NCBI GenBank assembly: GCA_040902195.1 | Contig: JBBDXS010000019.1 | Location: 213,969 to 277,968 of the forward strand | Reading direction: 5' to 3' | Length of the DNA stretch: 64,000 nucleotides | DNA from: Dehalococcoidia bacterium | GTDB taxonomy: Bacteria > Chloroflexota > Dehalococcoidia > DSTF01 > RBG-16-68-14 | Part shown: piece after piece, positions 47,909-61,812 of the stretch | Position numbering within the stretch: the stretch's first letter is position 1 | Layout of the letters: each line of letters opens with the position of its first letter | Translations under genes and position numbers: made by a program | Notes under the pieces: model-generated | What the model was told of the DNA's origin: nothing | Databases searched by the model: none | Seen by the model: the letters and a program-made list of their open reading frames with translations, nothing else

Positions 47909-48028
47909 CACTGTCTCTCCCTTTTCTGCATCGCTGGCTGCGCGGATATTTCGCGGTTTCTATCTTCTCGTAATGCTCGTCCGTCTGGCACGGCCAAGAG
48001 GCCCCTAGCTGCGAGCCATTCGGCACAT

Positions 48029-49300
48029 ATGCAGCGTCGTCCTTCCGATGTGAACGGCAAAAAGTCCTATACTGCTTTAGTGACTCAGGAAGGGCAGTCG
48101 GAGCATCCGCCAGAAGACGGCAGGCCAGAGCGCAGAGCTCGCGAGCTCTTGAACCTGCGGGCGGAGAACGAACGCCTGCGAACGCGCCTCATTTTGCTGA
48201 GCCGGCTCGGCCAGCAGATCGCCTCGTCACTCGACCTGACAACTGTGTTTCAGCAGGTCGTCGACAGCGCTTGCGAGCTGACGAGTGCTCGCTACGGCGC
48301 GCTTGGCATCTTCGATCGGCACGGACAGATCGAACAGTTCATTACGCATGGCCTGACGGACGAAGAACAGGACCGCATCGGCAGGCTGCCGGAGGGGCTC
48401 GGGGTCCTGGGCTGGCTCCGAGATCTTCAGGAGCCGCTTCGCTTGGGCGACCTGACGAAGCACCCGCGTTCCGCCGGCTTTCCCTCGAACCACCCAGCAA
48501 TGAAGACGTTTCTGGGTGCGCCCATCCGGCATGGCGCAGTGTCTCTCGGCAACCTCTATCTGACCGAGAAGGCTGAAGAACAGGACTTCACGCCGGAAGA
48601 CGAGAACCTGCTCGTCCTGTTTGCGGCGCAGGCGGCAATGGCGATCCGTAACGCGCAACTACACCGCCAAGTGCAGGACCTAGCCATACTGGAGGAGCGC
48701 GACCGGATCGGCATGGACCTACATGACGGCGTGATCCAGTCGCTCTACGCGACAGGGCTGAAGCTCGAAAGCGTATTGGACGACATGGCGAAGAACCCGC
48801 AGGAGGTCGCGTCCGAAGTTGGGCGCGCAATCGATCAGCTCAACCAGGTCATTGGCGACATCAGGAGCTACATCTTTCACCTCCGCCCCACCGCTCTCTC
48901 AGAGACCGACCTTGCCGGGGCGGTGGGTGGGCTGCTGCGTGAGCTCAAGGTCAACACGTTGATAGACGTTGAAATGCTGGAGGCGCCTGGTGCTTGTCGT
49001 GGGCTGGACCAGGAGCTTGCCGGAGGGTTGTTCCTGGTCGCCAAGGAGGCAATCGCGAACGCTCAGAAGCACGCAAAAGCGAAGCGCGTGTCCGCTTCAC
49101 TCGAGCGGTACAACGGCACCCTCAAGATGATCATTGCGGACGACGGCTCAGGATTCGATCCAGCCCTACCGAGCAGCGGCCTAGGCCTGCATAATGTCCG
49201 CGAGCGCATCGAGCGGCTTGGCGGAACGTTGTCGTTGGAGTCCAGTCCCCGGGATGGGACGCGCATCGTCGTAGAGGTCCCAGTCGCGGCTGGAAACTGA
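48029..49300 (+). CDS. GAF-domain sensor histidine kinase (HisKA_3/NarL-partner type, DevS/DosT-like architecture)
   Basis: GAF (TSARYGALGIFDRHGQI...), H-box RDRIGMDLHDGVIQSL, HATPase (ADDGSGFD, GLGLHNVRERI). Confidence 0.85.
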   Translation: MQRRPSDVNGKKSYTALVTQEGQSEHPPEDGRPERRARELLNLRAENERLRTRLILLSRLGQQIASSLDLTTVFQQVVDSACELTSARYGALGIFDRHGQIEQFITHGLTDEEQDRIGRLPEGLGVLGWLRDLQEPLRLGDLTKHPRSAGFPSNHPAMKTFLGAPIRHGAVSLGNLYLTEKAEEQDFTPEDENLLVLFAAQAAMAIRNAQLHRQVQDLAILEERDRIGMDLHDGVIQSLYATGLKLESVLDDMAKNPQEVASEVGRAIDQLNQVIGDIRSYIFHLRPTALSETDLAGAVGGLLRELKVNTLIDVEMLEAPGACRGLDQELAGGLFLVAKEAIANAQKHAKAKRVSASLERYNGTLKMIIADDGSGFDPALPSSGLGLHNVRERIERLGGTLSLESSPRDGTRIVVEVPVAAGN

Positions 49301-49956
49301 TGGTTGAGCAGGCGCGTGTGCTTCTCGTAGACGACCATGACGTCGTTCGCGAAGGCCTGCGCGCGCTGCTGCGTAGGCGCGATGAGTTGGTCGTGGTCGG
49401 CGAGGCGGACTCCGTCGCCTCCGCCATCGAGGCCGCGCGCGCCAGCCAGCCGGACGTCGTCGTTATGGACGTCCGCCTCCCTGATGGTACCGGCGTTCAG
49501 GCGTGCCGGGCGATCAGGGCCGAGCGGCCGGATACGAAGGTCATCATGCTCACGTCATACGCAGACGATGAGGCCGTCTTGGCATCGATCATGGCCGGCG
49601 CGAGCGGCTATCTCCTCAAGCAGACGCGCGGTCAGGACCTGCTCGACGCCATCGGGCGGGTCCTGCGCGGCGAGTCTCTCCTCGACCCCGTCGTGACGAG
49701 CCGGGTGCTCGAACGCGTGCGCAGTGCCGGACAAGGGAAACCTGACGAGCTCTCGCTCCTGTCGGAGCAAGAGCGCAAGATCCTCGACCTGATCGCAGAG
49801 GGCAAGACGAATAAGGAGATAGCGGAAGATGTCTTCCTCAGCGACAAGACGGTCAAGAACTACGTTAGTAGCATCCTGAGCAAGCTCGACCTGCGGCGTC
49901 GCTCCGAAGCCGCCGCGTTCATAGCCCGGCGTCAGACGCCTCCCCCGCAAGACTAG
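49300..49956 (+). CDS. NarL/LuxR-family response regulator (DevR/DosR-like)
   Basis: REC domain (LLVDDHDVVREG, VVMDVRLPDG, KVIMLTSY) plus C-terminal LuxR HTH (LSEQERKILDLIAEGKTNKEIA). TGATG overlap with the kinase gene. Confidence 0.9.
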   Translation: MVEQARVLLVDDHDVVREGLRALLRRRDELVVVGEADSVASAIEAARASQPDVVVMDVRLPDGTGVQACRAIRAERPDTKVIMLTSYADDEAVLASIMAGASGYLLKQTRGQDLLDAIGRVLRGESLLDPVVTSRVLERVRSAGQGKPDELSLLSEQERKILDLIAEGKTNKEIAEDVFLSDKTVKNYVSSILSKLDLRRRSEAAAFIARRQTPPPQD

Positions 49957-50032: not shown

Positions 50033-50467
50033 TTGGCTACGGAGGGTACGATGTCTGAAACGGTGCCGCTTCCGGCAATCCGGGTCTTGCTCGTCGATGA
50101 AGATAGCAAGACGCGCGCAGCCATCGCAGACCGGATCGGACGAATGGAAGGTATGGAGCTTGCGGGGGCGGCCGGGGACGTGCAAGGCGTACGCGATCTC
50201 CTTCACAGCGCGCAGACGGACGTCATCCTCCTCGACCTACACCAGTACGACGGGCAGGACGGCGGCGTCTGTCGCAGCATCCGGGCGCTGACGGATCTGC
50301 CGGTTATCGTCCTCGCCTCGTTCATGACAGTAGAGCGCTGGCAGGAGGCAAGCGCCGCCGGCGCGACAGCGTATGTCCTCAAGAACATCGATACCGAGCA
50401 GCTTAGCCGCGAGATCAAAGAGCTCACGGCGAAGGCTGGACGCGGCAGCGGAGGAGGAGAAGAATGA
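50033..50467 (+). CDS. single-domain response regulator (CheY-like receiver)
   Basis: IRVLLVDED, DVILLDLHQYDG, VIVLASF, K at position 117. TTG start; ATG at 50051 is an alternative. Gly-rich acidic tail. Confidence 0.7.
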   Translation: MATEGTMSETVPLPAIRVLLVDEDSKTRAAIADRIGRMEGMELAGAAGDVQGVRDLLHSAQTDVILLDLHQYDGQDGGVCRSIRALTDLPVIVLASFMTVERWQEASAAGATAYVLKNIDTEQLSREIKELTAKAGRGSGGGEE

Positions 50468-50985
50468 TCAAGCGAATTCTCGTTCCACTCGATGGGTCAG
50501 CGCTCGCGGAGCGTGTACTGGATGAGGCGAGGCCTCTTGCGCAGAGCCTTGGCAGCACTCTTGTCCTTATCCGCGTCGTGCCGGCGCAGGAGGACGCGGT
50601 ACTGTACGTGCCCCAGCTTGTCGATGAGCTCCGAGAAGCCCACGTTCGAGCAGCGGAGGAGTATCTCACGACGATCGCAGCGCACATCGCCACAGATCAG
50701 CTGCCGACCGAGACGTACGTCTGTGTCGGCGCTGTCGCCCCCACGCTGGCCGACAAGGCAACGGAACTCCATTGCGACCTGATTGCGCTCACCTCACACG
50801 GGATGGGTGGCCTTGGCGCGGCCGTGTTCGGCAGCATTGCGCTGAAGTTGTTGCACAGCGCGCCGTGTCCCGTTCTCGTCATTCGTTCAACGGCGGGACA
50901 GCTCGAGGGCGAAGAGGAAGCGGAAGAGAGTGCGGCCGACCAAGCACTCCTGCGAGAGCTATCGAGTACGCCGGCCGCGCGATAG
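50464..50985 (+). CDS. universal stress protein (UspA family)
   Basis: ILVPLDGS ... LIALTSHGMGG ... GSIALKLLHSAPCPVLVI. ATGA overlap with the receiver gene. Confidence 0.9.
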   Translation: MIKRILVPLDGSALAERVLDEARPLAQSLGSTLVLIRVVPAQEDAVLYVPQLVDELREAHVRAAEEYLTTIAAHIATDQLPTETYVCVGAVAPTLADKATELHCDLIALTSHGMGGLGAAVFGSIALKLLHSAPCPVLVIRSTAGQLEGEEEAEESAADQALLRELSSTPAAR

Positions 50986-50997
50986 GGAGCTTCAACC

Positions 50998-52179
50998 ATG
51001 GATACGCCAACGATTCTCGTACCGCTGGATGGCTCGGAACTGGCCGAGGCAGCCCTTGACGTCGCTGAAGCGTTCGCAAAGGCCATCGGCGCTCGCATAC
51101 TGCTCTTCGCCGCGTTCGAAGACGTGGCCCAGGGGCCGCTCGCGGAGAACTCACGGGCTGCGGAGTACCAACAGCGCGGGATCGACGAGCTCCGTGCTTA
51201 CATTGCGAAGATGGCGAGTGAGCTTGGCCGCGACGGCATCCACGTCGACACAAAGGTTGTCCACGGTGCAGCGTCGGATGAGATTCTCCGCGTCATCGGA
51301 GACGAGGACCCGAGCTTCGTCGTTCTGACGACGCATGGGCGTTCCGGTATCAGTCGTTGGCGCTACGGGAGCGTCGCGTCCAGGCTGGTCCACGAATCGT
51401 CGGCCGCCACCGTCGTCGTCGGGCCTAACGCCCGTCATCCCAGAGGCGCGCACGCAAAACCTGTTCGCCACATCCTCGTCCCGCTCGATGGCTCCGCCCA
51501 GGCCGAGGTCGCGCTGGGGCCGGCAACGGAACTAGCCAAGGCGTTCGGCGCCGAGCTGGTTCTTGCGCAGGTCGTCCAATGGCCCGGAAGCGCGTATATC
51601 GCCGGCGCTCCAGAGCTCGACTTCGCTCAGATAGAGATTGAGCTCACCGAAGCGGCGGCCGAACATCTTCGCATGGTGCGCGACCGCCTCGCCGGCCGTG
51701 TCGCCGGCCGGACCGTTAGAACGTTCGTGCAACGCGGCCCGGCGGTGGACGCGTTGACCTCGCTCGTGGACGGGGAGGGCATCGACCTCGTCGTGATGAC
51801 CTCTCACTGTCGTACCGGTTTCGCTCGCGCCGTCCTCGGTAGCGTCGCCGACCGGATGCTGCAATGCAACGTGCCGGTGGTTCTCATCCGGCCGGAAGGC
51901 GCCGTTCCGACGGTGCACCGGCCTCGTGGGCGCTACTGCCACAACTGCGGCCGCTCGTCACCGTACGCGAACGTGCTGGAAGACGACGTCTGCCTGCGCT
52001 GCGGGCAGCACCTGCACACGTGCGGGAACTGCGCGTACTTTGACGGCGTAGCTTGCATCATGCAGCGTCCGGAAGCTCATAGCCTGCTGCCCGGCAGCGA
52101 CTGCCCGTACTTCCAGTTTCGCGAGAGCGAAGCGCCGCCTGTGCATTCGGCCATCGCTGCTAAACGCGACGACCGCTAG
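50998..52179 (+). CDS. tandem universal stress protein fused to a C-terminal Cys-rich zinc-ribbon region
   Basis: Two USP repeats (ILVPLDGSELAEAAL... and ILVPLDGSAQAEVAL...) followed by CHNCGR...CLRCGQHLHTCGNCAYFDGVACIMQ...CPYF. Confidence 0.85.
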   Translation: MDTPTILVPLDGSELAEAALDVAEAFAKAIGARILLFAAFEDVAQGPLAENSRAAEYQQRGIDELRAYIAKMASELGRDGIHVDTKVVHGAASDEILRVIGDEDPSFVVLTTHGRSGISRWRYGSVASRLVHESSAATVVVGPNARHPRGAHAKPVRHILVPLDGSAQAEVALGPATELAKAFGAELVLAQVVQWPGSAYIAGAPELDFAQIEIELTEAAAEHLRMVRDRLAGRVAGRTVRTFVQRGPAVDALTSLVDGEGIDLVVMTSHCRTGFARAVLGSVADRMLQCNVPVVLIRPEGAVPTVHRPRGRYCHNCGRSSPYANVLEDDVCLRCGQHLHTCGNCAYFDGVACIMQRPEAHSLLPGSDCPYFQFRESEAPPVHSAIAAKRDDR

Positions 52180-53561
52180 TGCGCCCCAGCGATAGCCGTC
52201 TCCTCCAGGTACTTGGTGTACTGGCACATTGCGGCCAAGGCCTGCACCGCTCGCTCCGGGTAAGCGTAGACTGGAACGCGCGCTTCGTCGAGGAGCTTGC
52301 GGCCACGGTCGACCGCTTCGCCGCCCATGAACACGGCGATGAGCGGCTTCGCAAATTCCCGCGCAAGGTATGAGATCACACGCGCGGTGCGTTCCGGCTC
52401 CGTCACTCGTTGCGGGGTAAGGAGCACGAGGAGGGAATCAACCGTGTCGTCCGCGGCGAGCGCCTCCAGGGCCAACTGGTAGCGGTCCGCGCCAGCGTCT
52501 CCAAGCAGATCGACAGGGTTGGTTGTCGCCGCTGCCGCCGGAAGCCGCTCCTTGAGGGCAAGCATCGTATCGCGGGATAGCGGCGCAAGCTTGAGACCAA
52601 CCCGCTCGATGGCATCCGACGCCATGACCGCAGGACCGCCCGCGTTCGTCACGACACCGACCCGCGGTCCTCTCGGCAATGTGGAGAACGAGAAGCAGAG
52701 CGTGTAATCGAACAGCTCCGCCATCGTCGCCGCGCGAACGATCCCGGCCTGCCGGAAGGCCCCGTCGACGATTGCGTCGGAGCTCGCGAGCGCGCCCGTG
52801 TGCGAGCTAGCCGCTCGTGCGCCGCCGCCCGTCGTGCCGACCTTGATCAAGATGACCGGCTTCGATGCGGTCACGCGTCTCGCTACATCCATGAAGCGTC
52901 TGCCGTCCGTTATGCCCTCGAGATAGCCGATGATGATCTTCGTCTGCGGGTCGTCGCCAAGGTAGTCGAGACAGTCGACGTCATTGAGGTCCGCCATGTT
53001 GCCTAGTGAGACGAACTTCGCGAAGCCGAGATCGATCGAGCGCGCCCAGTCAAGGATCGCCGTTGCCACGGCGCCGGACTGCGAGAGCATACTCACATCG
53101 AACTGGAGCGGCGTCGTCTCAGCGAAGGTAGCGTTCATCCCGATCGCCGCATTGATGATCCCGACGGAGTTCGGCCCGATAAGCCGCATGCCGTACCGCC
53201 GCGCGCACTCCACGAGCTCTCGCTCGACAGCAGCCCCCTCCGGTCCGGTTTCGCGGAAGCCTGCCGTTATCACAACCGCAGCGCGGACGCCCTTCCGGCC
53301 GCATTCGTCCAGCGCCGAGAGCACGGCCGCTGCCGGAACGGCAAGAATCGCTAAGTCGGGGACTTCATCGATATCTAGGACGCTGGCGTAGGAGTGCAAG
53401 CCGAGAACTCGCTCAATGTTCGGATTCACGGCGTACAGACAGCCCTGGTAGCGTGCTCGCTGGAGGTTGTCGAGCACCACGTACCCGATCTTTTGCGGGC
53501 TGCGCGATGCGCCGATCACGGCGATGCTTCGCGGATTGAAGAATCGATTGAGATCAATCAC
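52176..53561 (-). CDS. acetyl-CoA synthetase (ADP-forming) alpha-subunit paralog / CoA-binding acyl-CoA synthetase
   Basis: 461 aa; FNPRSIAVIGASRSPQKIG, LIGPNSVGI, SQSGA, HTGALAS. Confidence 0.8.
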   Translation of the reverse strand: MIDLNRFFNPRSIAVIGASRSPQKIGYVVLDNLQRARYQGCLYAVNPNIERVLGLHSYASVLDIDEVPDLAILAVPAAAVLSALDECGRKGVRAAVVITAGFRETGPEGAAVERELVECARRYGMRLIGPNSVGIINAAIGMNATFAETTPLQFDVSMLSQSGAVATAILDWARSIDLGFAKFVSLGNMADLNDVDCLDYLGDDPQTKIIIGYLEGITDGRRFMDVARRVTASKPVILIKVGTTGGGARAASSHTGALASSDAIVDGAFRQAGIVRAATMAELFDYTLCFSFSTLPRGPRVGVVTNAGGPAVMASDAIERVGLKLAPLSRDTMLALKERLPAAAATTNPVDLLGDAGADRYQLALEALAADDTVDSLLVLLTPQRVTEPERTARVISYLAREFAKPLIAVFMGGEAVDRGRKLLDEARVPVYAYPERAVQALAAMCQYTKYLEETAIAGAH

Positions 53562-53632: not shown

Positions 53633-54790
53633 TCAGTAGCGAAGCACGGCGGCGATGCAGGCCTCTTCGAGGAGCGCGGCCTCGGCGTCTTGGTGGACGG
53701 TCTCGATGAGCGCGCCGGTTTGCAGCGCTCGTTCGATGGCCCATTCAGCGAGATCGGCCACCGGCTCAAGCGTCTGGCCACACACAGGGCACTCGCCCAG
53801 GGTTTCGATAGCGGCAAAGTCGCCGGCGGGGCATGCGCTGCCCTTGATGTTGCGCTGTGTCGCTACAACCAGTTTATGGACCCGCCCCTCACCCAGCGCC
53901 TGCAGCGTGTCGTCCCAGCCGACAGTCCCCAGCGCTCCGGAACGAGCCGCGTCAAGAACGTCGGAAACGATCTGGCGCTCGGCTTCGCTTTCGGCGGCGG
54001 CTTCGACCTCTTCGACGCGCTCGACAATCTGCTCGTCGGAGAGGAACTCTTCTGCCGCGAACGTACCGGCCACGCGCGTCCGCAGACCCCGAGGTAGCAC
54101 GGAGAGGAAGGCTGCGCGCGCCTCGTCCGGGCCCCCGACAATCAACCGATCGAATGAACGACGCTTAGCCTCAACCTGCAACTGCTTGGCGGCGCGCACG
54201 AGGTGACTGTGGAGGTGGGCATCGCGGTGCCGCGAGTAGCCGGGCTGGGCCCACCCGCCCCTCTTGCTGCGGCCAGGGTACTTGTCAACGACGTCTACCG
54301 CGTGCTCGACTCGCCCCAGGTACACGTGCAGCAGACGGGCGTGGTCTTTATCGACAAGAGCGACGGCGTACCGCTCGTAGTCGTCTAGAATGGCTGCGAG
54401 CGGCGCAAGGACCGGCCGCTCGGCAAAACGGGCGAGCGGCTGGACCGGTACCTGCAACTGAAACAGGTCCCACAACCCGCGCGGCTGGCAAGAAAAGAGC
54501 GCAACACCGCGGCCGGCCAGCTCGAAGTCATCGCGGAGGAATTCGATCACGCGGCGTCGCTCGTCGTCCACGCGGCCCTGGAGAAGGCCGCGCGCAGTGC
54601 CGCCGAGCGTATGGAGGACGTTCGTGGCTACACCGTGAATATCGCGCCGCTCGCCTCCCGACGTCTCGAAGGAAAGGTACACAGAGAGCACCCCGTGCGG
54701 ACTGCGAAAGCGCCCCAACCGGCGCAGGTCCCCTTCGGTTGGCGCTCGGAGCTGGTTGATTGTTGCCCGGTTTCGTGTTGGCATAGTCAT
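53633..54790 (-). CDS. eRF1/Pelota-like (bacterial baeRF family) protein with C-terminal zinc ribbon
   Basis: Central PGRSKRGGWAQPGYSRHRDAH parallels eRF1 domain-2 HGRGGQSALRFARLR (GGQ replaced by GGW-AQ). C-terminal CPAGD...CPVCGQ zinc ribbon. From memory it resembles M. tuberculosis Rv2629 (recalled as eRF1-like). Confidence 0.65.
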   Translation of the reverse strand: MTMPTRNRATINQLRAPTEGDLRRLGRFRSPHGVLSVYLSFETSGGERRDIHGVATNVLHTLGGTARGLLQGRVDDERRRVIEFLRDDFELAGRGVALFSCQPRGLWDLFQLQVPVQPLARFAERPVLAPLAAILDDYERYAVALVDKDHARLLHVYLGRVEHAVDVVDKYPGRSKRGGWAQPGYSRHRDAHLHSHLVRAAKQLQVEAKRRSFDRLIVGGPDEARAAFLSVLPRGLRTRVAGTFAAEEFLSDEQIVERVEEVEAAAESEAERQIVSDVLDAARSGALGTVGWDDTLQALGEGRVHKLVVATQRNIKGSACPAGDFAAIETLGECPVCGQTLEPVADLAEWAIERALQTGALIETVHQDAEAALLEEACIAAVLRY

Positions 54791-55215
54791 GGGCCCTTCT
54801 GTGAATGATGGCCGGCGACGGCGAGGAACGCATCGAGGTACTGCTTGACGTCATGCGCGACGTCGTCCAACGACAGCACGCCGATGACTCGGCCGCCGCT
54901 GATCGTGACCGGCATACGCCGCGCGCCGGCATTCCTCATCATCTCCACAGCCTTCTCCAGATCGACACCGCCATACACCGTCGTCGGGTGGAGCTCCATG
55001 CATGCACCGACGGGGCGCTTGGCGGGATCGCCACCGAGCGCCATACAGCGCACGACGAGATCGCGATCCGTGATCACCCCCTCAATGATGCGGCCCTCTT
55101 TCGTCGCGACAAGCATCCCAACGTGGTGGTCGCGCATGAGCTGGGCCGCGCGTTGGCAACTATCGACGGCTGACACTTCGACAAGGGCGAAGTTCATCAC
55201 GTCGTTGACCTTCAT
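54787..55215 (-). CDS. CBS-domain pair protein (Hrp1/Rv2626c-like)
   Basis: 142 aa, two CBS repeats (VGMLVATKEGRIIEGVITDRDLV; RRMPVTISGGRVIGVLSLDDV). ATGA overlap with the eRF1-like gene. Confidence 0.85.
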   Translation of the reverse strand: MKVNDVMNFALVEVSAVDSCQRAAQLMRDHHVGMLVATKEGRIIEGVITDRDLVVRCMALGGDPAKRPVGACMELHPTTVYGGVDLEKAVEMMRNAGARRMPVTISGGRVIGVLSLDDVAHDVKQYLDAFLAVAGHHSQKGP

Positions 55216-55233
55216 GCCGGTCCCTCCATTCGT

Positions 55234-55707
55234 TTAGGCGGTGGCAAGTTGGGCCACCTTCGGCTCGGCCACGCGCGTGTAATCTGCGAACGCCAAGCTA
55301 ATGGTGTCCGTATGCGTACCGGCCTGAAATCGGATCGTCTCGCCTGCTGCCAGTCCGGAGTCGATATACAACGGAATGTCATACAGTTTGCCGATCGGTG
55401 GCATCGCGCCGACGTCACAGTCGGGGAAGCGGGCAGCGAACTCCTCCTCTGTCGCCAGACGGACATCCGTCGCTCCAAGCAGCGCCTTCAGGTTCGTGAG
55501 GTTGACGTGCTCAGGCGCGGGCAGCGCTAGCATGATGAGCTTGCCGTCCCCCAGCACCATCACGACCTTCGCGAACTGTTTCCCGGACACATGCTCGCTC
55601 GCAGCAACCTCCTGAGCGGTGAACACTTCCGGATGATGCTGCACCTGAAACGGCACGTGCTGCTCGCGCAGGTATTGCTCAAGCCTCACTTTGCAGTCCA
55701 TGGCCAT
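55234..55707 (-). CDS. YbaK/ProX-like aminoacyl-tRNA deacylase domain protein
   Basis: 157 aa; fits the free-standing ProX/YbaK pattern (VPFQVQHHPEVFTAQEVAA ... KVVMVLGDGKLIMLALPAPEHVNLTNLKALLG ... GAMPPIG ... PLYIDSGL ... IRFQAGTHTDTISL). Confidence 0.72.
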   Translation of the reverse strand: MAMDCKVRLEQYLREQHVPFQVQHHPEVFTAQEVAASEHVSGKQFAKVVMVLGDGKLIMLALPAPEHVNLTNLKALLGATDVRLATEEEFAARFPDCDVGAMPPIGKLYDIPLYIDSGLAAGETIRFQAGTHTDTISLAFADYTRVAEPKVAQLATA

Positions 55708-55855
55708 CCTCCTCTGACTCCAGCCTAACGGGCTACGGACGGGCCGATGAGTGTCAAACAGCCCGTTCCTGGCGGGCTGTTTGGCCTGTAGGACGCAAGA
55801 CGGGGGCTACTGGTGGGCTGAGCCGAGAATGCGCGCCTTGGAGGTCTCCGCGGTC

Positions 55856-56794
55856 CTACTTGTAGTCGATCAGTCCTACCAACGAGCGGGACGCGTGCAG
55901 TCGTTGAATCGCCTCAGACAGGAGCTGTCGCAGACTGATCACCTGGACTGGTAGGCCGGTCTCTGCAGGCGATTTGACGCTGTCGGTAACGATGACGTGC
56001 TTCACAGGCAACGAGCGCAGTCGCTCAACAGCCTGGCCGGCAAACAGCCCGTGTGTGGCTGCGACGATCAACTCTGTGCTTGAACCAGCGTCCAGAACGG
56101 CCCGGTATGCCGCCTCAATGGTCCCGCCGGTGCTAATCATGTCATCCACGATGACCGGAGAGCGCCCGCGTACTTCCCCGCTGACGCGGGAGACCCGGAC
56201 TTCCGCGCCGGAAATACGGGTCTTGTGCACAACAGCCATCGGAACGCCCAAGGCGTCCGCAAATCGTTCGGCAAGGTGGGCTGCACCGAGGTCCGGTGCG
56301 ACGATGACGCTTGTCTCACCGCACAGAGGGCGGGCACTCTCGATCAGCGACTGGACAGCACTGAGGTGGGCGACGGGGATGCTGGTGAGAGCCTCGATGG
56401 CCGGCGTGTGAACGTCGACAGCGACTATCTGCTCGATGCCGCTTGCCTGGATGAGATCGGCTGCAAGCCGGGCGGCGATCGCCTCCCGTCCGCGCGCGCG
56501 TCGATCCTGTCGCGCATAGCCGAAATACGGGATGACCGCGGTGGTGCGCCCCGCCCCGGCGCGGCGGCAGGCATCGGCAAGCAAGAGCAGTTCCACTAGA
56601 TGCTGATCCGGCGGCGGGCTTGTCGCCTGAATGATGAAGACGTCGCGGCCGCGAACGGAGTCAACGAGTTCGACCTGAAGCTCTCCGTCAGGGAATCGCT
56701 CCACTCGGCGATTCGTCAGATCAATCGCAATGTCCGTCGCGACATGTTGGGCGAGCTCCAGGCTCGCCGTGCCAGCTATCAGCGAGAGTTCCAC
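55856..56794 (-). CDS. prs: ribose-phosphate pyrophosphokinase (PRPP synthetase)
   Basis: 312 aa; DGELQVELVDSVRGRDVFIIQ, PYFGYARQDRR, VIVDDMISTGGT PRPP-binding loop. Confidence 0.9.
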   Translation of the reverse strand: MELSLIAGTASLELAQHVATDIAIDLTNRRVERFPDGELQVELVDSVRGRDVFIIQATSPPPDQHLVELLLLADACRRAGAGRTTAVIPYFGYARQDRRARGREAIAARLAADLIQASGIEQIVAVDVHTPAIEALTSIPVAHLSAVQSLIESARPLCGETSVIVAPDLGAAHLAERFADALGVPMAVVHKTRISGAEVRVSRVSGEVRGRSPVIVDDMISTGGTIEAAYRAVLDAGSSTELIVAATHGLFAGQAVERLRSLPVKHVIVTDSVKSPAETGLPVQVISLRQLLSEAIQRLHASRSLVGLIDYK

Positions 56795-56865
56795 CGGCTA
56801 GCGCCTTCCGAGCCCTGCATTCCAATCCCCGATGGCGAACGGGCCGCGACCGTGCGCTCCCTGTG

Positions 56866-58239
56866 TCAATGGCTAGCCCGCGCTCGAACGGGCCGCCGCA
56901 TGTGCGCGTCCGTCAAGATCTGCTGTACTTCTGCGTCCTCGGTCTGTCCGAATTGCTCGTAATAGTAGCCAACGGCCAAGAACGGCTCGGGTTGGTATAG
57001 GCACACAACATCGTCGACCTCGTCGCCAAGAGCTGAGCAGGCCTCTGTGGATCCGACTGGTACAGCAACCACGATCTTCAAGGGACCTCCGGCCCGAACC
57101 GAGCGCACTGACGCTCGCATCGTCGCGCCGGTCGCAAGTCCATCGTCTGCGATAATCACAACGCGTCCGGAGAACACTCCCGCCGGCCGGCCCTTGCGGA
57201 ACTGTGTCTCGCGACGACGGGCCTCTTCTCGTTGCTCCGCGGTCTCCTCCTCCAGATATCTTTTGCTCACCGCGAGCTCGCGGATGACGTTCTCGTTGAG
57301 GAACCGTCCGCCGTTCGCGGTCACGGCCCCGATCGCCAGCTCCGGGTAGCCTGGAGCGCCAAGCTTGCGGGCGACGACGACATCGAGGTCAGCGTCCAGC
57401 CGCTTGGCGATCTCGTCCGCGACTGGTACGCCTCCTCGCGGAATACCCAGCACAATAACGTCCTGACCGCCGTACGCCTCAACGAGGCGCTCACCCAACT
57501 GCCGGCCGGCGTCGCGCCGGTCGCGAAAGTGCGGGCCATAGTCCGGCGCCCGCCGCGCGACCGGTGCCACCGGCTCCCCCCAAGGCGGATCTTCCTTCAG
57601 CCCAAGCTTCACGAGGAACCATTCGACCGTCCGATCGAGGGCTTGCTCCAGCGTCCCCGGCTCTTCGAAGAGGTGCCCGGCTCCCTCGACGATCGAAGTC
57701 GTCGCGAAGGAACATTGAGCGGCTCCATCGCGGATCTCGGAGAGCAGCGGGTCGGCGGAGCCAACGAGGACGAGCGACGGGACATCGAGCGCCTTCCAGC
57801 TGTCGGAGCTGAGCGGAGGCGCTCGCAACACCATCGTGGCCGGGCGAACGCGCCCGCGCCGAACAGCCTCGGTGGCCACGACGGCGCCGAAGCTCGAGCC
57901 GGCGATGGCGAGCCGCGCGGGGTCGAGCTGCGGATGCGCCAGGGCCCACTGGAAAACGGCCACAAGATCGTCGAGGAACGCCTCCTGGCCGCGCGGATCG
58001 TCAGAGGACTCGCCGTGGCCGCTGAGATCGAAGAGAATCGCCGCGATACCGGCGTCGAGCAGGTGCGCTGCAATTACGCTGTTGCGTGGCGACGCCTTAC
58101 TGCTTCCTAGCCCGTGGACAAAGATTACGCCCGGCACGCGGCCTGCAGTGGCCGGGGCCAGTAGACGTGCCGAGAGACGGGCGCCGTTTCGCGTGATAGT
58201 AACGTCCTTACATGTACCAACCATTTGCTTCCTCCACAT
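56866..58239 (-). CDS. alpha/beta-hydrolase (dienelactone-hydrolase-like) - phosphoribosyltransferase fusion protein (M. tuberculosis Rv0571c-like architecture)
   Basis: N-terminal GVIFVHGLGSSKAS ... AGSSFGA hydrolase motifs; C-terminal type I PRTase (VVIIADDGLATGATM). Confidence 0.8.
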   Translation of the reverse strand: MWRKQMVGTCKDVTITRNGARLSARLLAPATAGRVPGVIFVHGLGSSKASPRNSVIAAHLLDAGIAAILFDLSGHGESSDDPRGQEAFLDDLVAVFQWALAHPQLDPARLAIAGSSFGAVVATEAVRRGRVRPATMVLRAPPLSSDSWKALDVPSLVLVGSADPLLSEIRDGAAQCSFATTSIVEGAGHLFEEPGTLEQALDRTVEWFLVKLGLKEDPPWGEPVAPVARRAPDYGPHFRDRRDAGRQLGERLVEAYGGQDVIVLGIPRGGVPVADEIAKRLDADLDVVVARKLGAPGYPELAIGAVTANGGRFLNENVIRELAVSKRYLEEETAEQREEARRRETQFRKGRPAGVFSGRVVIIADDGLATGATMRASVRSVRAGGPLKIVVAVPVGSTEACSALGDEVDDVVCLYQPEPFLAVGYYYEQFGQTEDAEVQQILTDAHMRRPVRARASH

Positions 58240-58866: not shown

Positions 58867-61812
58867 TTGGTCGAGCCGATCGTCCTAACCATCCGCGATG
58901 TTGGATGCGATATACGACTCGTATGCGGCGCGTTGCAGGAAGGGCCTGTTGACCTGCGAAACGGGGGCCGGATGCGGGTATGCTTCCGCGTCTCCGATCG
59001 CCTTTACTTACGTCGCGAGGTACCTGCGATTGTAAGGGACGTTCCGACCACAGCAGCGCCGAGCGTACAGAACACCAACGACCTCGTCGGCGCGGCGGCG
59101 GACGGCGTGTATGGCGTCCTCGGTACCTCTCCTGCGGGTCTGAGCAGCGAGGAGGCGCGGAACCGGCTGCTCCAGCATGGGCCGAACGAGTTGCCGCGCC
59201 CGCGACCCGCAAATCCAGCACGGCTGCTCTTTGAGCAGGTCAGCCACACGCTCGCGCTGCTGCTCTGGGCCGGGGCTGGACTTGCTTTCCTTGCGGGCCT
59301 GCCGCAGTTGGGTTGGGCGATCCTTGCCATCGTGGTCATCAACGCCGCATTTAGCTTCTGGCAGGAATACAGGGCAAGCCGGCTCATCGAGACATTGAAC
59401 CGGCGCCTGCCCGCGGTCGTTCGCGTTCGACGTGACGGCGTGGAGCATCGCGTACACACAGACGACCTGGTGCCGGGCGACTTGCTCATCGTCCGCCGAG
59501 GAGATCGCGTTCCAGCGGATGCCCGGCTCGTCCGCGCCGTAGACCTTCGCCTCGACTACAGCAGCCTCACGGGAGAATCGGAGCCGGTCGAGCGTGAAGC
59601 GCCGTCCGCGCCGCCCGCGCCCCTTGCCGATGCGCCCAATTGCGTTCTTGCCGGAACGACGGTCGTCGATGGAAGCGGCGAGGCCGTGGTGTTTGCGACG
59701 GGTAAGAGCACCGCTTTCGGCCAGGTGGCCGGGCTGACTGAGCGCGTCTACCTGGAGCCGAGCCCGCTCCAGCGCGAGCTCGCGCGCACTGCCCGCGCGA
59801 TCGCCGCGGTTGCGGTGATCACCGGGCTCTTTTTCTTTCTGGCGGGAGATGCGACCGGCCGTCTCACTGCCAGAGAAAGCTTCATCTTTGGCGTAGGCAT
59901 CCTCGTCGCGATCGTTCCCGAAGGGCTTCTTCCAACCGTGACGCTTGCGCTCGCGCTGACGGTGCAACGGATGGGACACCACAACGCGATCGTGAAGCGG
60001 CTTTCTTCGGCGGAGGCTTTGGGTTGCACGACGGTCATCTGCACCGACAAGACGGGCACGATCACAATGAACGAGATGACAGCCCGCCAGGTCTGGGCCG
60101 GCGAAGCCCACTATGGTATCAGCGGACAAGGATATGGATTGGGTGGCAAGCTGCGAGAGGCGGACGACAGCGGCAGGGACGAGGTCGCGTCGCTAGAACT
60201 ACTGCTGCGCTGCGCCGTCCTCTGCAACAACGGCATTCCTCCGCGCTCGGACACTCGCGTCGCTGAGCTGGGCGACCCGCTGGATGAAGCGCTGCTCGTT
60301 CTGGCGATCAAGGGAGGTCTGGATCCGGACGCGATTCGCCGCCAGTGGCGTCGACTTCGGGAGTACCCTTTTCACGCCGAGCGTCGCAGTATGGCCACGC
60401 TGCATGAGCGTGACGGCGAGTTGAAGGTCTTTGCCAAAGGCGGGCCGCTGGAGATACTCGAGCGGTGTACGGGCGAACTGCGAGCCGGCACTCCGCGCGT
60501 CCTCGACGACGCGAGACGGATAGAACTGCAACGGCGCGTCGAAGACATGTCGGATCGCGGACTGCGCGTCCTCGGCTTCGCCTATCGCGACGCACGGGAC
60601 GAGAACGATGTGAAGGACATCGATCGAGTAGAGAGGGACCTGGTCTTCCTGGGACTGGTCGGTCTCGATAATCCGCTCCGGTCCGAAGTCCCGGAGGCTG
60701 TCGAGCGCTGCCACAGCGCGGGCATCCAGGTCGTGATGCTCACAGGTGACTACGCGCACACGGCGCTCGCGGTGGCGCGCGAAGCTCGCATTGCGTCTAG
60801 CGCCGATGACGCGGTAACGGGAGCAGAACTCGATGCACTAAGCGACGATGCGCTCGGGAAACTGCTGGCGGACCGGCAACCCACCGTCTTCGCTCGCGTC
60901 ACACCGGAACACAAGCTCCGGCTGGTCGAAGCGTATCAGCGTCTGGGGCACATCGTGGCGGTCACGGGAGATGGCGTGAACGACGCGCCCGCGCTCAAGG
61001 CAGCCGAAGTGGGCATCGCGATGGGGCGTACCGGAACGGACGTCGCGCGCGAAGCGGCAGACATGGTGCTCATGGACGACAACTTTGCCACGATCGTCCG
61101 CGCCGTCGAAGAAGGACGAACGGTGTTCGCCAACATCAAGAAGTTTCTGACCTATGTCTTAACCAGCAACGTCGCGGAGGCCGCCCCCTTTGTTCTCTTT
61201 GTACTTGTCGGCGTGCCGTTGCCGCTGACGATCTTGCAAGTGCTGCTTGTCGACGTGGGAACGGACATGTTCCCGGCGATCGCGCTGGGGATCGATCCGC
61301 CCGATCCCGGCGTGATGCAGCGACCACCCCGCGCTAGGAACGAGCGCATCGTTTCGGCCGGCTTGCTGCTGAGGGCGCTGGGCTTCCTCGGGATGCTAGC
61401 CGCAGCGCTTAGCCTGGCCGCCTATTTCTACGTCCAGTGGGACATGACGGGACACGTTTTCCACGGCCTCGCCGATGAGGGCGCGCAGTACCGCGCAGCA
61501 ACGACCGTCACGATGGCGGCTATCGTCGCTTGCCAGGTAGCCAATGCGTTCGCGTGCCGGAGCGAACACGGTTCGGCGCTGGGCCGCGAGATGCTGGCGA
61601 ATCGCGCCCTCCTAATCGGTATCGCGGCGGAGATCTTACTGCTGACTGCGCTGATCGGCCTGCCGCCTCTGCGTCACATCTTCGATCTGGAGCCAATCGA
61701 CCGCACGTACTGGCCGGTGCTGGCCTCGTTTCCGATCGTCTTTCTGGCGGTGGAGGAGGTCCGGAAATCCATTGTGCGAGCGATGTCGCGAAGTGCTGGG
61801 GCGAAAGCGTGA
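58867..61812 (+). CDS. P-type cation-transporting ATPase (P2-type, Ca2+/CtpF-like)
   Basis: N-terminal cation-ATPase domain (LGTSPAGLSSEEARNRLLQHGPNEL), TGES, DKTGTITMN phosphorylation motif, TGD, GDGVNDAPAL. True start is probably downstream of 58867 (first ATG 58972; GTG 59107) because the first ~35 codons have atypical low GC3. Confidence 0.82.
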   Translation: MVEPIVLTIRDVGCDIRLVCGALQEGPVDLRNGGRMRVCFRVSDRLYLRREVPAIVRDVPTTAAPSVQNTNDLVGAAADGVYGVLGTSPAGLSSEEARNRLLQHGPNELPRPRPANPARLLFEQVSHTLALLLWAGAGLAFLAGLPQLGWAILAIVVINAAFSFWQEYRASRLIETLNRRLPAVVRVRRDGVEHRVHTDDLVPGDLLIVRRGDRVPADARLVRAVDLRLDYSSLTGESEPVEREAPSAPPAPLADAPNCVLAGTTVVDGSGEAVVFATGKSTAFGQVAGLTERVYLEPSPLQRELARTARAIAAVAVITGLFFFLAGDATGRLTARESFIFGVGILVAIVPEGLLPTVTLALALTVQRMGHHNAIVKRLSSAEALGCTTVICTDKTGTITMNEMTARQVWAGEAHYGISGQGYGLGGKLREADDSGRDEVASLELLLRCAVLCNNGIPPRSDTRVAELGDPLDEALLVLAIKGGLDPDAIRRQWRRLREYPFHAERRSMATLHERDGELKVFAKGGPLEILERCTGELRAGTPRVLDDARRIELQRRVEDMSDRGLRVLGFAYRDARDENDVKDIDRVERDLVFLGLVGLDNPLRSEVPEAVERCHSAGIQVVMLTGDYAHTALAVAREARIASSADDAVTGAELDALSDDALGKLLADRQPTVFARVTPEHKLRLVEAYQRLGHIVAVTGDGVNDAPALKAAEVGIAMGRTGTDVAREAADMVLMDDNFATIVRAVEEGRTVFANIKKFLTYVLTSNVAEAAPFVLFVLVGVPLPLTILQVLLVDVGTDMFPAIALGIDPPDPGVMQRPPRARNERIVSAGLLLRALGFLGMLAAALSLAAYFYVQWDMTGHVFHGLADEGAQYRAATTVTMAAIVACQVANAFACRSEHGSALGREMLANRALLIGIAAEILLLTALIGLPPLRHIFDLEPIDRTYWPVLASFPIVFLAVEEVRKSIVRAMSRSAGAKA

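What the first reader, a model, noticed from the sequence alone, without database searches (positions are those of the whole stretch)
53633..55707. eRF1-like protein with GGQ replaced by GGW-AQ, co-encoded with CBS protein and a YbaK-like tRNA deacylase
The 385-aa protein carries an eRF1 domain-2-like segment (KRGGWAQPGYSRHRDAH versus eRF1 GRGGQSALRFARLR) and a terminal CxxC...CxxC zinc ribbon. Its stop overlaps the start of a CBS-pair protein (ATGA), and 19 nt further downstream is a free-standing YbaK/ProX-type aminoacyl-tRNA deacylase. The trio suggests a ribosome-rescue or peptidyl-/aminoacyl-tRNA quality-control device active during dormancy. The substitution of the catalytic GGQ glutamine-bearing loop is notable.
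Basis: partly seen in the sequence, partly recalled or inferred. Interest (0 to 1): 0.65.

Follow-up and report, generated by a model that had tools for sequence, protein, structure and literature searches.

The report
Balon-type ribosome hibernation factor homolog
The eRF1-like gene is real, but it belongs to an already described bacterial family whose studied members put ribosomes to sleep during stress, and its proposed partnership with the neighbouring tRNA-deacylase gene is not conserved in relatives.

Summary
The three genes exist on the minus strand, but in the order YbaK-like, CBS, eRF1-like.

The 385-aa protein is a clear member of Pfam baeRF_family10 (E 1.9e-31). Its closest solved relative by sequence and by fold is the mycobacterial ribosome hibernation factor Msmeg1130 (Balon), which falls in the same Pfam family.

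The GGWAQ loop is a family trait. The GG is near-invariant, but the Gln is replaced by Glu, Ala or Ser in 22-43% of relatives, which argues against conserved peptide release. The zinc ribbon has only three Cys plus Asp here; the family consensus is CxxC...CxxC.

Across 115 related loci the YbaK-like gene is adjacent only in a 96%-identical strain. The CBS gene, whose closest solved relative is M. tuberculosis Hrp1 (Rv2626c), is adjacent in four distinct relatives, but its orthologs also occur without the eRF1-like gene. More distant relatives sit beside Hsp20, ClpB, DnaJ, sigma-factor and RtcB genes.

The window locus lies next to a DosS/DosR-like two-component system and universal stress protein genes. 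Best reading: a Chloroflexota Balon-type hibernation factor inside a dormancy gene island. This is a new member of a known kind, not a rescue trio.

The parts
53633..54790 (-). 385-aa three-domain aeRF1-like protein, Pfam baeRF_family10, relative of Balon/Msmeg1130
   Evidence: ORF. PF18854 scores 109.7 bits against a cutoff of 27.1. Best PDB sequence hit is 8v9j_z, Balon MSMEG_1130, at E 2e-10. AF2 pLDDT 86.3. Top Foldseek hit is 8v9l_z at E 4.8e-26.
54002..54415 (-). Middle (RNase H-fold, eRF1 domain 2-like) domain, residues 126-263
   Evidence: Extent of the Pfam baeRF_family10 match.
54245..54259 (-). GGWAQ loop (residues 178-182), at the position of the eRF1 GGQ loop
   Evidence: Translation. 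In HMMER's alignment to aRF1 4af1, GGW of the window protein lies over GGQ of aRF1. Column statistics, close set / representatives: G178 98%/84%, G179 98%/91%, W180 88%/73%, Q182 78%/57%.
53780..53833 (-). Zinc-ribbon insert of the C-terminal (Pelota-like) domain: C320-x3-D324...C334-x2-C337
   Evidence: Translation. The family consensus is CxxC...CxxC. It aligns with the ligand-less insert of Msmeg1130.
54787..55215 (-). 142-aa CBS-pair protein; its stop overlaps the start of the eRF1-like gene (ATGA)
   Evidence: PF00571 matched twice. Best PDB hit is Rv2626c/Hrp1 (1y5h) at E 5e-12. Orthologs lie directly upstream of the eRF1-like gene in L035, L033/34, L042 and the P0004 contig.
55234..55707 (-). 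157-aa free-standing tRNA_edit (YbaK/ProX superfamily) protein, first gene of the apparent operon
   Evidence: PF04073 at E 2.9e-25. Below the YbaK_EbsC cutoff. Best PDB hit is 3op6, an uncharacterised protein, at E 3e-40. Linkage is not conserved.
52176..53561 (-). ADP-forming acetate-CoA ligase alpha-like protein, 71 nt downstream on the same strand
   Evidence: TIGR02717 scores 560 bits against a cutoff of 567; Pfam domains. The same arrangement occurs only in L035.
48029..49956 (+). GAF-HisKA_3-HATPase sensor kinase (48029-49300) and a NarL/GerE-type response regulator (49300-49956), a DosS/DosR-like architecture
   Evidence: Pfam.
50033..52179 (+). Receiver-only response regulator (50033-50467), USP (50464-50985) and tandem USP with a Cys-rich tail (50998-52179), convergent with the eRF1-like operon
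   Evidence: Pfam.
55856..58239 (-). PRPP synthetase (55856-56794) and an alpha/beta-hydrolase-phosphoribosyltransferase fusion (56866-58239), upstream on the same strand
   Evidence: Pfam. The same pair follows a CBS ortholog in L120. Relatives of the fusion lie near eRF1-like genes in several loci.
55755..55783 (-). 11-bp perfect hairpin between the PRPP synthetase stop and the YbaK-like start; a possible transcript boundary
   Evidence: RNA fold and sequence. It did not meet the terminator scan's criteria.

Best explanation
The 385-aa protein is a Chloroflexota member of the bacterial aeRF1 clade, family 10. This is the family that contains the mycobacterial Balon homolog Msmeg1130.

Most likely mechanism, inferred by homology: under energy or oxygen limitation it enters the ribosomal A site like a release factor. 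Its N domain sits at the decoding centre and its middle-domain GG-Trp loop and Arg/His-rich helix sit at the edge of the peptidyl-transferase centre. Its C domain, through the zinc-ribbon insert, faces EF-Tu. It blocks translation and protects ribosomes without releasing the nascent chain.

In this organism it is co-transcribed and translationally coupled with an Hrp1-like CBS-pair protein. Both belong to a DosR-like dormancy gene set that also includes USPs, a P-type ATPase, a hydrolase-PRTase fusion and PRPP synthetase. The YbaK-like deacylase is a lineage-specific passenger at the head of the operon, not a conserved component.

Shown here: family membership, fold, motif statistics and neighbourhoods. 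Inferred: ribosome binding, translation inhibition and regulation.
For: PF18854 scores 109.7 bits, above the 27.1 cutoff. Msmeg1130 residues 71-375 score 126 bits on the same model. The best PDB sequence hit is Balon MSMEG_1130 at E 2e-10. Foldseek ranks Msmeg1130 first at 4.8e-26, ahead of aRF1 at 1.3e-21, P. urativorans Balon at 3.9e-20 and Rv2629 at 6e-16. NCBIfam's best hit is the MSMEG_1130-family hibernation factor model, aligned end to end.

The protein has no NIKS motif and no GGQ tripeptide. Gln182 is replaced by Glu, Ala or Ser in 22% of close relatives and 43% of representative relatives, including a 75%-identical one.

Relatives are flanked by Hsp20 (22 loci), ClpB (17), sigma factor (15), DnaJ (13), MerR (10) and RtcB (2). 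These are the stress-operon neighbours reported for Balon (PMC10901736).

The CBS neighbour is closest to Rv2626c/Hrp1. The M. tuberculosis DevR regulon contains Rv2626c and the Rv2628-Rv2629-Rv2631 operon, as well as USPs, ctpF and hspX (PMC3177182). A DosS/DosR-like kinase and regulator and USPs flank the window locus.
Against: Scores are far below the NCBIfam equivalog cutoffs for all three curated Balon families: 95 against 480, 44.5 against 320, and 27 against 330. Identity to Msmeg1130 is only about 21%.

This clade keeps ancestral release-factor-like features that Msmeg1130 has lost: a near-invariant GG, a Gln in most members, a length-constrained loop in the close clade, and a liganded zinc ribbon. 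Burroughs and Aravind singled out family 10 as possibly catalytic (PMC6514570).

No HP dipeptide is present in the N domain. No HPF/RaiA gene was seen next to it. No experiment exists for this clade.
Confidence: 0.65

Rival explanations
1. The protein is a catalytically active aeRF1-type peptidyl-tRNA hydrolase. It would act as a rescue or termination factor for stalled ribosomes under stress, using GGWAQ like the GGxSQ loop of archaeal and actinobacterial Vms1-like factors.
For: GGWAQ fits the GGxSQ pattern described for aVLRF-1 and acVLRF-1. Family 10 was flagged as possibly active because of a well-conserved Gln (PMC6514570). In the AF2 model Gln182 sits immediately before the long helix that starts at residue 183. 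From my own recollection, untested here, this matches the position of the Gln of GGQ before its helix in eRF1. Pfam acVLRF1 scores 27.9 bits, just above its cutoff of 27.1. NCBI names homolog P0025 'Vms1/Ankzf1 family peptidyl-tRNA hydrolase'. G178, G179, R187 and H196 are strongly conserved. RtcB lies upstream in L001 and L002.
Against: Gln182 is Glu, Ala or Ser in 22-43% of relatives, including P0002 at 75% identity (GGWSEARY). Catalytic Gln residues of release factors are invariant (established knowledge). Msmeg1130, in the same Pfam family and with an AGQ at the aligned site, is an experimentally shown translation inhibitor and hibernation factor (PMC10901736). No Vms1 or ANKZF1 chain is among the 50 best structural matches. 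NCBIfam acVLRF1 scores 19.4 against a cutoff of 125. The neighbours are chaperones and dormancy genes rather than rescue components.
Confidence: 0.15
2. The Hrp1-like CBS-pair protein is a functional partner. It would sense adenine nucleotides or another ligand and gate or assist ribosome binding of the Balon homolog, making a two-protein energy-sensing hibernation module analogous to archaeal CBS-containing hibernation factors. This extends the best explanation rather than excluding it.
For: The genes are translationally coupled by an ATGA overlap in the window. Gaps of 2-11 nt are seen in L033, the P0004 contig and L042, whose eRF1-like proteins are 51-72% identical to the window's. The adjacent CBS proteins are clear orthologs with a shared C-terminal tail. 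Hrp1 lies near a Balon paralog in mycobacteria (PMC10901736). [quoted passage not shown]
Against: Most relatives of the eRF1-like protein lack an adjacent CBS gene, including a 76%-identical one, L036. Four further CBS orthologs with usable contigs are not next to an eRF1-like gene; instead they sit near the DosRS-like system or the hydrolase-PRTase and PRPP synthetase pair. This pattern fits shared regulon membership rather than an obligate pair. The similarity to Sri is generic CBS similarity.
Confidence: 0.2
3. This is the first reader's model: YbaK-like deacylase, CBS protein and eRF1-like protein form one dedicated device for peptidyl- or aminoacyl-tRNA quality control or ribosome rescue.
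For: The three genes are tightly packed on one strand with an 18-nt gap and a 4-nt overlap, and each start has its own Shine-Dalgarno-like sequence. The same arrangement occurs in L035.
Against: L035 is 96% identical, so it is not an independent observation. A sensitive search with the YbaK-like protein found no other copy in 115 related loci. The YbaK-like family is very widespread, with more than 1000 clusters at 90% identity and 59-70% identity among the listed relatives outside the window's own strain. It sits in unrelated contexts. In MAG RBG_16_68_14 the two genes lie on different contigs.
Confidence: 0.04

Closest known systems
Balon-type ribosome hibernation factors: Msmeg1130, Rv2629 and P. 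urativorans Balon (Helena-Bueno et al. 2024, PMC10901736)
   Same: Same three-domain aeRF1-like architecture. Msmeg1130 is the best sequence and fold match and falls in the same Pfam family 10. No NIKS and no GGQ tripeptide. Stress or hypoxia gene context with Hsp20, RtcB and an Hrp1-like CBS protein among the neighbours.
   Different: About 21% identity. Far below the NCBIfam equivalog cutoffs. It retains a liganded zinc ribbon where Msmeg1130 has a ligand-less insert, and a GG-Trp-x-Gln loop where Msmeg1130 has AGQ. No HP dipeptide in the N domain. No adjacent RaiA/HPF gene. No experimental data.
baeRF-1 family 10 (Burroughs and Aravind 2019, PMC6514570; Pfam PF18854)
   Same: Passes the Pfam model. 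Full N, M and Pelota-type domain complement with the zinc-ribbon insert. A Gln lies near the catalytic-loop position, the feature those authors highlighted for family 10.
   Different: Nothing categorical. In the clade around this gene the Gln is only 57-78% conserved, and the second zinc ligand has moved or changed to C-x3-H or C-x3-D.
Archaeal and eukaryotic release factor aRF1/eRF1
   Same: Same fold and domain order. aRF1 4af1 is the second-best hit by sequence (E 8e-9) and third by fold. The GG lies at the GGQ site and the zinc ribbon lies in the C domain.
   Different: No NIKS. GGW instead of GGQ. TIGR03676 scores 56 against a cutoff of 235. It is bacterial and embedded in stress operons.
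Vms1/ANKZF1 and acVLRF1 peptidyl-tRNA hydrolases
   Same: The GGWAQ loop resembles the GGxSQ loop of aVLRF-1 and acVLRF-1 (PMC6514570). There is a borderline Pfam acVLRF1 hit. A homolog carries this name in NCBI.
   Different: It has the N-terminal domain that acVLRF-1 has lost and the Pelota-type C domain that aVLRF-1 lacks (PMC6514570). NCBIfam acVLRF1 scores 19 against a cutoff of 125. No Vms1 structure is among the top 50 fold matches.
M. tuberculosis DevR/DosR dormancy regulon, especially Rv2623-Rv2631 (PMC3177182)
   Same: The same kinds of genes are clustered: a GAF-HisKA_3 kinase with a NarL regulator, USPs, a CBS-pair protein closest to Rv2626c, a Balon-family protein (Rv2629 type), a P-type ATPase (ctpF type), and Hsp20 and RtcB in relatives.
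   Different: A different phylum (Chloroflexota relatives). No Dev-box-like motif was found. Co-regulation is inferred, not shown.
Archaeal CBS-module hibernation factors: Hib/HibA, AHA, Sri and Dri (PMC13324472, PMC12934967, PMC13004131)
   Same: A CBS module is genetically tied to a ribosome-silencing protein. [quoted passage not shown]
   Different: In those systems the CBS modules are four-CBS proteins or are fused to HPF, and they bind the ribosome themselves. Here a separate two-CBS protein sits next to an aeRF1-type factor, and the linkage is patchy.

Membership tests
Pfam PF18854 baeRF_family10 | Score at or above the curated gathering threshold | tested here: met
   109.7 bits against 27.1, E 1.9e-31, residues 126-263 covering model positions 1-142 of 143.
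Pfam PF18854 baeRF_family10 | Full aeRF1 three-domain architecture with a zinc-ribbon or beta insert in the Pelota-type C domain (PMC6514570) | tested here: met
   AF2 model with pLDDT 86. Full-length Foldseek alignments to Balon, aRF1 and eRF1. C320/D324/C334/C337 insert.
Pfam PF18854 baeRF_family10 | Well-conserved Gln in the catalytic loop (highlighted by Burroughs and Aravind) | tested here: inconclusive
   Gln182 is present in the window protein. It is only 78% conserved among 58 close relatives and 57% among 141 representatives, with Glu, Ala or Ser otherwise.
Balon-type ribosome hibernation factors (NCBIfam NF052288, NF052289, NF052287) | Score above the curated equivalog cutoffs | tested here: not met
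   95.3 against 480, 44.5 against 320 and 27.2 against 330. It is a distant relative, not an equivalog.
Balon-type ribosome hibernation factors | Closest solved relative by sequence and by fold is a proven Balon, and it shares that protein's Pfam family | tested here: met
   8v9j_z at E 2e-10. 8v9l_z at E 4.8e-26, rank 1. Msmeg1130 scores 126 bits on PF18854.
Balon-type ribosome hibernation factors | Absence of the NIKS and GGQ motifs | tested here: met
   No NIKS in the sequence. The loop reads GGWAQ. Caveat: a Gln lies two residues after the GG.
Balon-type ribosome hibernation factors | HP motif in the N domain contacting the decoding centre | tested here: not met
   No HP dipeptide in residues 1-125, and only 14 of 141 representatives have one. 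The paper does not give residue numbers, so structural equivalence could not be mapped.
Balon-type ribosome hibernation factors | Beta-loop insert in the C domain that contacts EF-Tu | tested here: inconclusive
   A zinc ribbon occupies the aligned insertion site. PMC6514570 regards the beta insert as a degenerate zinc ribbon. EF-Tu contact is not testable here.
Balon-type ribosome hibernation factors | Location in stress-response operons | tested here: met
   Hsp20, ClpB, DnaJ, sigma factor, MerR and RtcB in relatives. USPs and a DosRS-like system in the window.
Balon-type ribosome hibernation factors | Binds the ribosomal A site and inhibits translation without peptide release | not testable with these tools
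   Needs ribosome binding assays, cryo-EM and in vitro translation assays.
Classical aRF1/eRF1 (TIGR03676) | Equivalog score, NIKS stop-codon motif and GGQ | tested here: not met
   56.3 against 234.7 bits. No NIKS. GGW instead of GGQ.
Vms1/ANKZF1/acVLRF1 | Family model score and an architecture lacking the aeRF1 N domain (acVLRF-1) or the Pelota C domain (aVLRF-1) | tested here: not met
   NCBIfam NF041024 scores 19.4 against 125. Pfam PF18859 scores 27.9 against 27.1, but lies under the far stronger PF18854 hit. The protein has both flanking domains. The GGxSQ-like loop is the only shared trait.
YbaK/ProX (INS) trans-editing superfamily (157-aa neighbour) | tRNA_edit domain; for YbaK proper, the TIGR00011 equivalog score | tested here: inconclusive
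   PF04073 scores 89.2 against 25.5, which is met. TIGR00011 scores 38.9 against 153, which is not met. The closest solved structure is the uncharacterised 3op6. The substrate is unknown.
Hrp1 (Rv2626c)-like stand-alone CBS-pair proteins (142-aa neighbour) | Two CBS domains only, about 140 aa, in a hypoxia or dormancy regulon context | tested here: met
   PF00571 matched twice. Best PDB hits are 1y5h and 1xkf (Rv2626c) at E 5e-12. Orthologs lie next to GAF-HisKA_3 kinase and NarL regulator pairs. Regulation itself was not tested.

The most novel reading that the evidence does not exclude
The zinc-ribbon, GG-Trp-(Ala/Ser)-Gln clade to which this gene belongs has not become a passive plug. It would retain chemistry directed at the peptidyl-transferase centre: peptidyl-tRNA hydrolysis or, from recollection and untested here, Vms1-like cleavage of the tRNA 3' end. 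That would make it a bacterial aeRF1-type release or rescue enzyme deployed in dormancy, possibly gated by the co-translated Hrp1-like CBS protein.
Probability: 0.12. Interest if true: 0.7.

Novelty: new member of a known kind. Interest (0 to 1): 0.3.

Why it matters
The finding extends the Balon/baeRF-1 family 10 hibernation factors into Chloroflexota. It also shows a DosR-like dormancy gene set recurring outside Actinobacteria, comprising a sensor kinase and regulator, USPs, an Hrp1-like CBS protein, a Balon homolog, a P-type ATPase and a hydrolase-PRTase fusion.

This clade keeps ancestral release-factor features, namely the zinc ribbon and the GG loop. That makes it a useful intermediate for asking how a release factor became a hibernation factor.

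Public annotations of its homologs lag behind the 2024 discovery. They read 'peptide chain release factor subunit 1' or 'Vms1/Ankzf1 family peptidyl-tRNA hydrolase'. The finding does not reveal a new kind of system.

Tried and rejected
(1) Conserved YbaK linkage. phmmer with the window YbaK-like protein against all ORFs of 115 related loci found only L035, which is 96% identical. The reverse look-ups of YbaK orthologs showed unrelated contexts. Rejected.

(2) Obligate CBS-eRF1-like pair. An HMM built from the four adjacent CBS orthologs found no further copies in the loci. Four CBS orthologs elsewhere lack the eRF1-like neighbour. Downgraded to regulon-mates.

(3) Anti-phage defence membership. 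There were no PADLOC hits for any of the three proteins.

(4) Dev-box-like operator. GGGACNNNNGTCCC gave one hit against 3.2 expected. A local palindrome GGGGCCATTCGGCCCC is not enriched in the window and is absent upstream of the YbaK operon.

(5) Sigma-70 promoter and intrinsic terminator scans of 52-57 kb gave nothing above shuffles.

(6) No cis-regulatory RNA was found near the locus. The intergenic region upstream of the YbaK-like gene does not fold unusually well overall, with z = -0.8.

(7) The first attempt at a genome scan with the 50-sequence alignment failed because no conserved stretch was available. It was repeated with 30 closer sequences.

(9) A literature search for PDB 3OP6 found nothing.
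Full report
**What is there**

All three genes of the finding lie on the minus strand.
- A 157-aa tRNA_edit protein at 55707..55234.
- An 18-nt gap.
- A 142-aa CBS-pair protein at 55215..54787.
- A 385-aa eRF1-like protein at 54790..53633.

The CBS stop codon overlaps the eRF1-like start in an ATGA. Each start is preceded by a GGAGG-like sequence. An ADP-forming acetate-CoA ligase alpha-like gene follows after 71 nt.

The quoted segment KRGGWAQPGYSRHRDAH is present, with GGWAQ at 54245-54259. The 'CxxC...CxxC' motif is not literally present. The protein reads C320-PAG-D324 ... C334-PV-C337, which is three Cys plus Asp, and it lies inside the C-terminal domain.

**What the eRF1-like protein is**

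It passes Pfam baeRF_family10 with 109.7 bits against a cutoff of 27.1. It has weaker hits to acVLRF1, baeRF families 2 and 3, and eRF1_2.

The best NCBIfam hit is the MSMEG_1130-family ribosome hibernation factor model. It aligns end to end but scores far below the cutoff, 95 against 480. aRF1 (56 bits), the Rv2629 family (44.5 bits) and the AOC03_06830 family (27 bits) follow.

Among solved structures the best sequence match is 'Ribosome hibernation factor Balon (MSMEG_1130)', 8v9j_z, at E 2e-10. Archaeal aRF1 4af1 follows at E 8e-9.

An AlphaFold2 model built on 50 homologs has a mean pLDDT of 86.3. Foldseek against the PDB ranks the matches as follows:
- Msmeg1130, 4.8e-26.
- aRF1, 1.3e-21.
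- P. urativorans Balon, 3.9e-20.
- eRF1 chains, 3e-19 and weaker.
- Rv2629, 6e-16.
- Pelota, 1e-10 and weaker.
- No Vms1 chain among the 50 best.

Msmeg1130 residues 71-375, recovered from the HMMER alignment, themselves score 126 bits on PF18854. The window protein and an experimentally characterised Balon homolog are therefore in the same Pfam family.

That family was defined computationally by Burroughs and Aravind (PMC6514570). [quoted passage not shown] They lack NIKS and GGQ and lie in stress operons (PMC10901736).

The family is large. A profile of this clade finds 10,054 clusters at 50% identity at E up to 0.001, and 2,086 at E up to 1e-30.

**The 'GGQ to GGW-AQ' loop**

I used a MAFFT alignment of 58 close homologs and 141 representative homologs. 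The figures below give the close set first, then the representatives.

| Position | Close homologs | Representatives |
|---|---|---|
| G178 | 98% | 84% |
| G179 | 98% | 91% |
| W180 | 88% | 73% |
| Q182 | 78% | 57% |

At position 182 the alternatives are Glu (17% and 16%), Ala and Ser. A homolog that is 75% identical to the window protein reads GGWSEARY.

Release-factor catalytic glutamines are invariant (established knowledge), so this variability argues against peptide release as the conserved function. Msmeg1130 has RAGQ at the aligned position and is nevertheless a hibernation factor.

R187 and H196, in the helix after the loop, are highly conserved. This fits the rRNA-contacting basic helix noted for the clade in PMC6514570. 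The loop is a known family trait, not a peculiarity of this gene.

It does resemble the GGxSQ motif of aVLRF-1 and acVLRF-1, and Burroughs and Aravind flagged family 10 as possibly active. A catalytic role therefore cannot be excluded for Gln-bearing members.

**The zinc ribbon**

In the wider family the insert is CxxC...CxxC: C320 99%, C323 92%, C334 99%, C337 97%. In the close clade C323 is replaced by Gly and the next residue is His (43 of 58) or Asp (7 of 58, including the window).

Msmeg1130 has no ligands at the same insert. This matches the statement that many baeRF-1 families carry a two-strand insert in place of the zinc ribbon (PMC6514570). In Balon this region is the beta-loop that meets EF-Tu (PMC10901736).

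The N domain has no NIKS and no HP dipeptide. Balon's HP-motif feature is therefore not met at the sequence level, although the paper gives no residue numbers to map.

**Gene neighbourhoods**

I collected 32 loci from species-representative genomes and 80 from metagenomes. Nearly all are Chloroflexota MAGs, at 25-76% identity. I added contigs for the closest homologs.

phmmer with the window's neighbours, plus Pfam scans of recurrent neighbour clusters, gave the following counts within 3 kb of the eRF1-like gene across 115 loci, 88 of which have at least 600 nt of upstream sequence:

| Neighbour | Loci |
|---|---|
| Hsp20 | 22 |
| ClpB | 17 |
| sigma-70-type factor | 15 |
| metallophosphoesterase-BON | 13 |
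| DnaJ | 13 |
| MerR | 10 |
| CBS | 4 |
| P-type ATPase | 4 |
| RtcB | 2 |
| YbaK | 1 |

The single YbaK case is L035, which is 96% identical to the window and has the same YbaK-CBS-eRF1-like-ACS order. It is not an independent observation.

The YbaK-like protein belongs to a very widespread and well conserved family. It has more than 1,000 clusters at 90% identity, with 59-70% identity among the listed relatives outside the window's own strain, and JGI names it Ala-tRNA(Pro) deacylase. Orthologs sit in unrelated contexts. One lies near an isoleucyl-tRNA synthetase-type gene and Ham1, and another near glutamine synthetase. In MAG RBG_16_68_14 the YbaK ortholog lies on a different contig from that MAG's eRF1-like gene.

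**The CBS protein**

Its best solved relative is M. tuberculosis Rv2626c (Hrp1; 1y5h and 1xkf, E 5e-12). It also hits a CBS-domain protein chain (9znf_4) of PDB entry 9ZNF, which is the Methanosarcina acetivorans 70S-SriA-SriB hibernation-factor complex.

Clear orthologs with the same C-terminal tail lie immediately upstream of the eRF1-like gene in four distinct relatives:
- L035, 96% identical.
- L033/L034, 72% identical, 2-nt gap.
- The P0004 contig, 70% identical, 3-nt gap.
- L042, 51% identical, 11-nt gap.

The linkage is patchy, however. A 76%-identical relative, L036, sits after amtB-glnK. Others sit after hemerythrin or before a P-type ATPase.

I examined four additional CBS orthologs on longer contigs. 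None is next to an eRF1-like gene. Two lie beside a GAF-HisKA_3 kinase and NarL regulator pair. One lies directly before the same hydrolase-PRTase fusion and PRPP synthetase pair that precedes the window operon.

The pattern fits genes of one regulon that are shuffled relative to each other. It does not fit an obligate two-protein machine.

**The island**

In the window the operon is convergent with several genes on the plus strand:
- A GAF-HisKA_3-HATPase kinase (48029-49300).
- A NarL/GerE response regulator (49300-49956).
- A receiver-only regulator.
- A USP and a tandem USP.

Upstream on the minus strand are PRPP synthetase, a hydrolase-PRTase fusion and a GYD protein. A P-type ATPase follows on the plus strand.

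This mirrors the M. tuberculosis DevR/DosR regulon. That regulon includes devRS, several USPs, ctpF, hspX, Rv0571c, Rv2626c and the Rv2628-Rv2629-Rv2630-Rv2631 operon (PMC3177182). The Balon paper notes a Balon paralog near Hrp1 and hypoxia induction of Rv2629 and Msmeg1130.

I found no Dev-box-like operator, so co-regulation is inferred from gene content only.

**Mechanism (inferred)**

Under energy or oxygen limitation the protein most likely occupies the A site as Balon does. The GG-Trp loop and basic helix would sit at the rim of the peptidyl-transferase centre, and the zinc-ribbon insert would face EF-Tu. Translation would be silenced and ribosomes protected.

The CBS-pair protein may be a ligand-sensing partner, which would be analogous to the CBS modules of archaeal hibernation factors. 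The neighbourhood data give this only modest support. The YbaK-like gene is best seen as a passenger.

**Verdict**

The interpretation as a rescue or quality-control trio is not supported, while its dormancy flavour is. The gene is a new, fairly divergent member of a known family. Interest is modest.

The main residual uncertainty is whether Gln-bearing, zinc-ribbon-bearing members retain catalysis. I put this at about 0.12-0.15.

Noticed in passing
window 3590-3726 (+): A strong c-di-AMP riboswitch (ydaO/yuaA type, 103.5 bits against a gathering score of 38) lies upstream of the + strand gene at 3925-5478. It overlaps the 5' part of my rough minus-strand gene call at 2456-3775, whose start is probably mis-called.
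   Followed up: no
window 50998-52179 (+): A tandem-USP protein (393 aa) carries a Cys-rich C-terminal tail (CHNCG...CLRCG...CGNCAYFDGVAC...DCPYF), which looks like one or two zinc-binding knuckle pairs. Pfam reports only the USP domains.
   Followed up: no
window 55856-58239 (-); L120 4041-6381; L006, L012, L048, L050, L061: An alpha/beta-hydrolase-phosphoribosyltransferase fusion travels with this gene set. It is paired with PRPP synthetase in the window and in L120, where the pair follows a CBS ortholog. Relatives of the fusion lie within a few kb of eRF1-like genes in several other loci. From memory, M. tuberculosis Rv0571c is a similar fusion in the DosR regulon; I did not test this.
   Followed up: partly
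window 49968-49983 and 48013-48026 (+): A perfect palindrome, GGGGCCATTCGGCCCC, lies between the NarL-type regulator and the receiver/USP genes. A related copy, GAGCCATTCGGCAC, lies just before the kinase start. It is a candidate operator, but matches are not enriched in the window (14 against 12.3 expected) and none lies upstream of the YbaK operon.
   Followed up: partly
window 55755-55783 (-): A perfect 11-bp hairpin (AAACAGCCCGC/GCGGGCTGTTT, with a 7-nt loop) follows the PRPP synthetase stop, and a TTGACA hexamer comes right after it. These could be a transcript boundary and the promoter of the YbaK-CBS-eRF1-like operon. Neither met the scan criteria.
   Followed up: partly
window 44590-46867 (-) and 52176-53561 (-): There are two ADP-forming acyl-CoA synthetase alpha-like genes in the window. 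The one at 44590-46023 is preceded by an ATP-grasp_5 beta-like gene (46130-46867). The one downstream of the eRF1-like gene has no beta partner nearby.
   Followed up: no
window 46920-46991 (+) and 32274-32347 (-): Two tRNA genes. The first lies in the intergenic region just upstream of the ATP-grasp/ACS pair.
   Followed up: no
window 61479-63998 (+): A second P-type ATPase paralog (phmmer E 8e-143 to the first one at 58867-61812) appears to run off the end of the window. My rough gene caller placed small minus-strand ORFs there instead.
   Followed up: no
L036 3-3151; L041 2-1675; L072 2097-3251; L001/L002: Close relatives of the eRF1-like gene have quite different upstream genes. These are amtB-glnK (PII) in a 76%-identical relative, hemerythrin in two relatives, and RtcB in two at 53-54% identity. 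P-type ATPases lie directly downstream in L033, L039 and L041.
   Followed up: partly
homologs P0004, P0023, P0025: Public annotations of this clade read 'peptide chain release factor subunit 1 (eRF1)' (JGI) or 'Vms1/Ankzf1 family peptidyl-tRNA hydrolase' (NCBI). None reflects the Balon-type hibernation factor family, and the NCBIfam hibernation-factor models miss this clade because of high cutoffs.
   Followed up: partly
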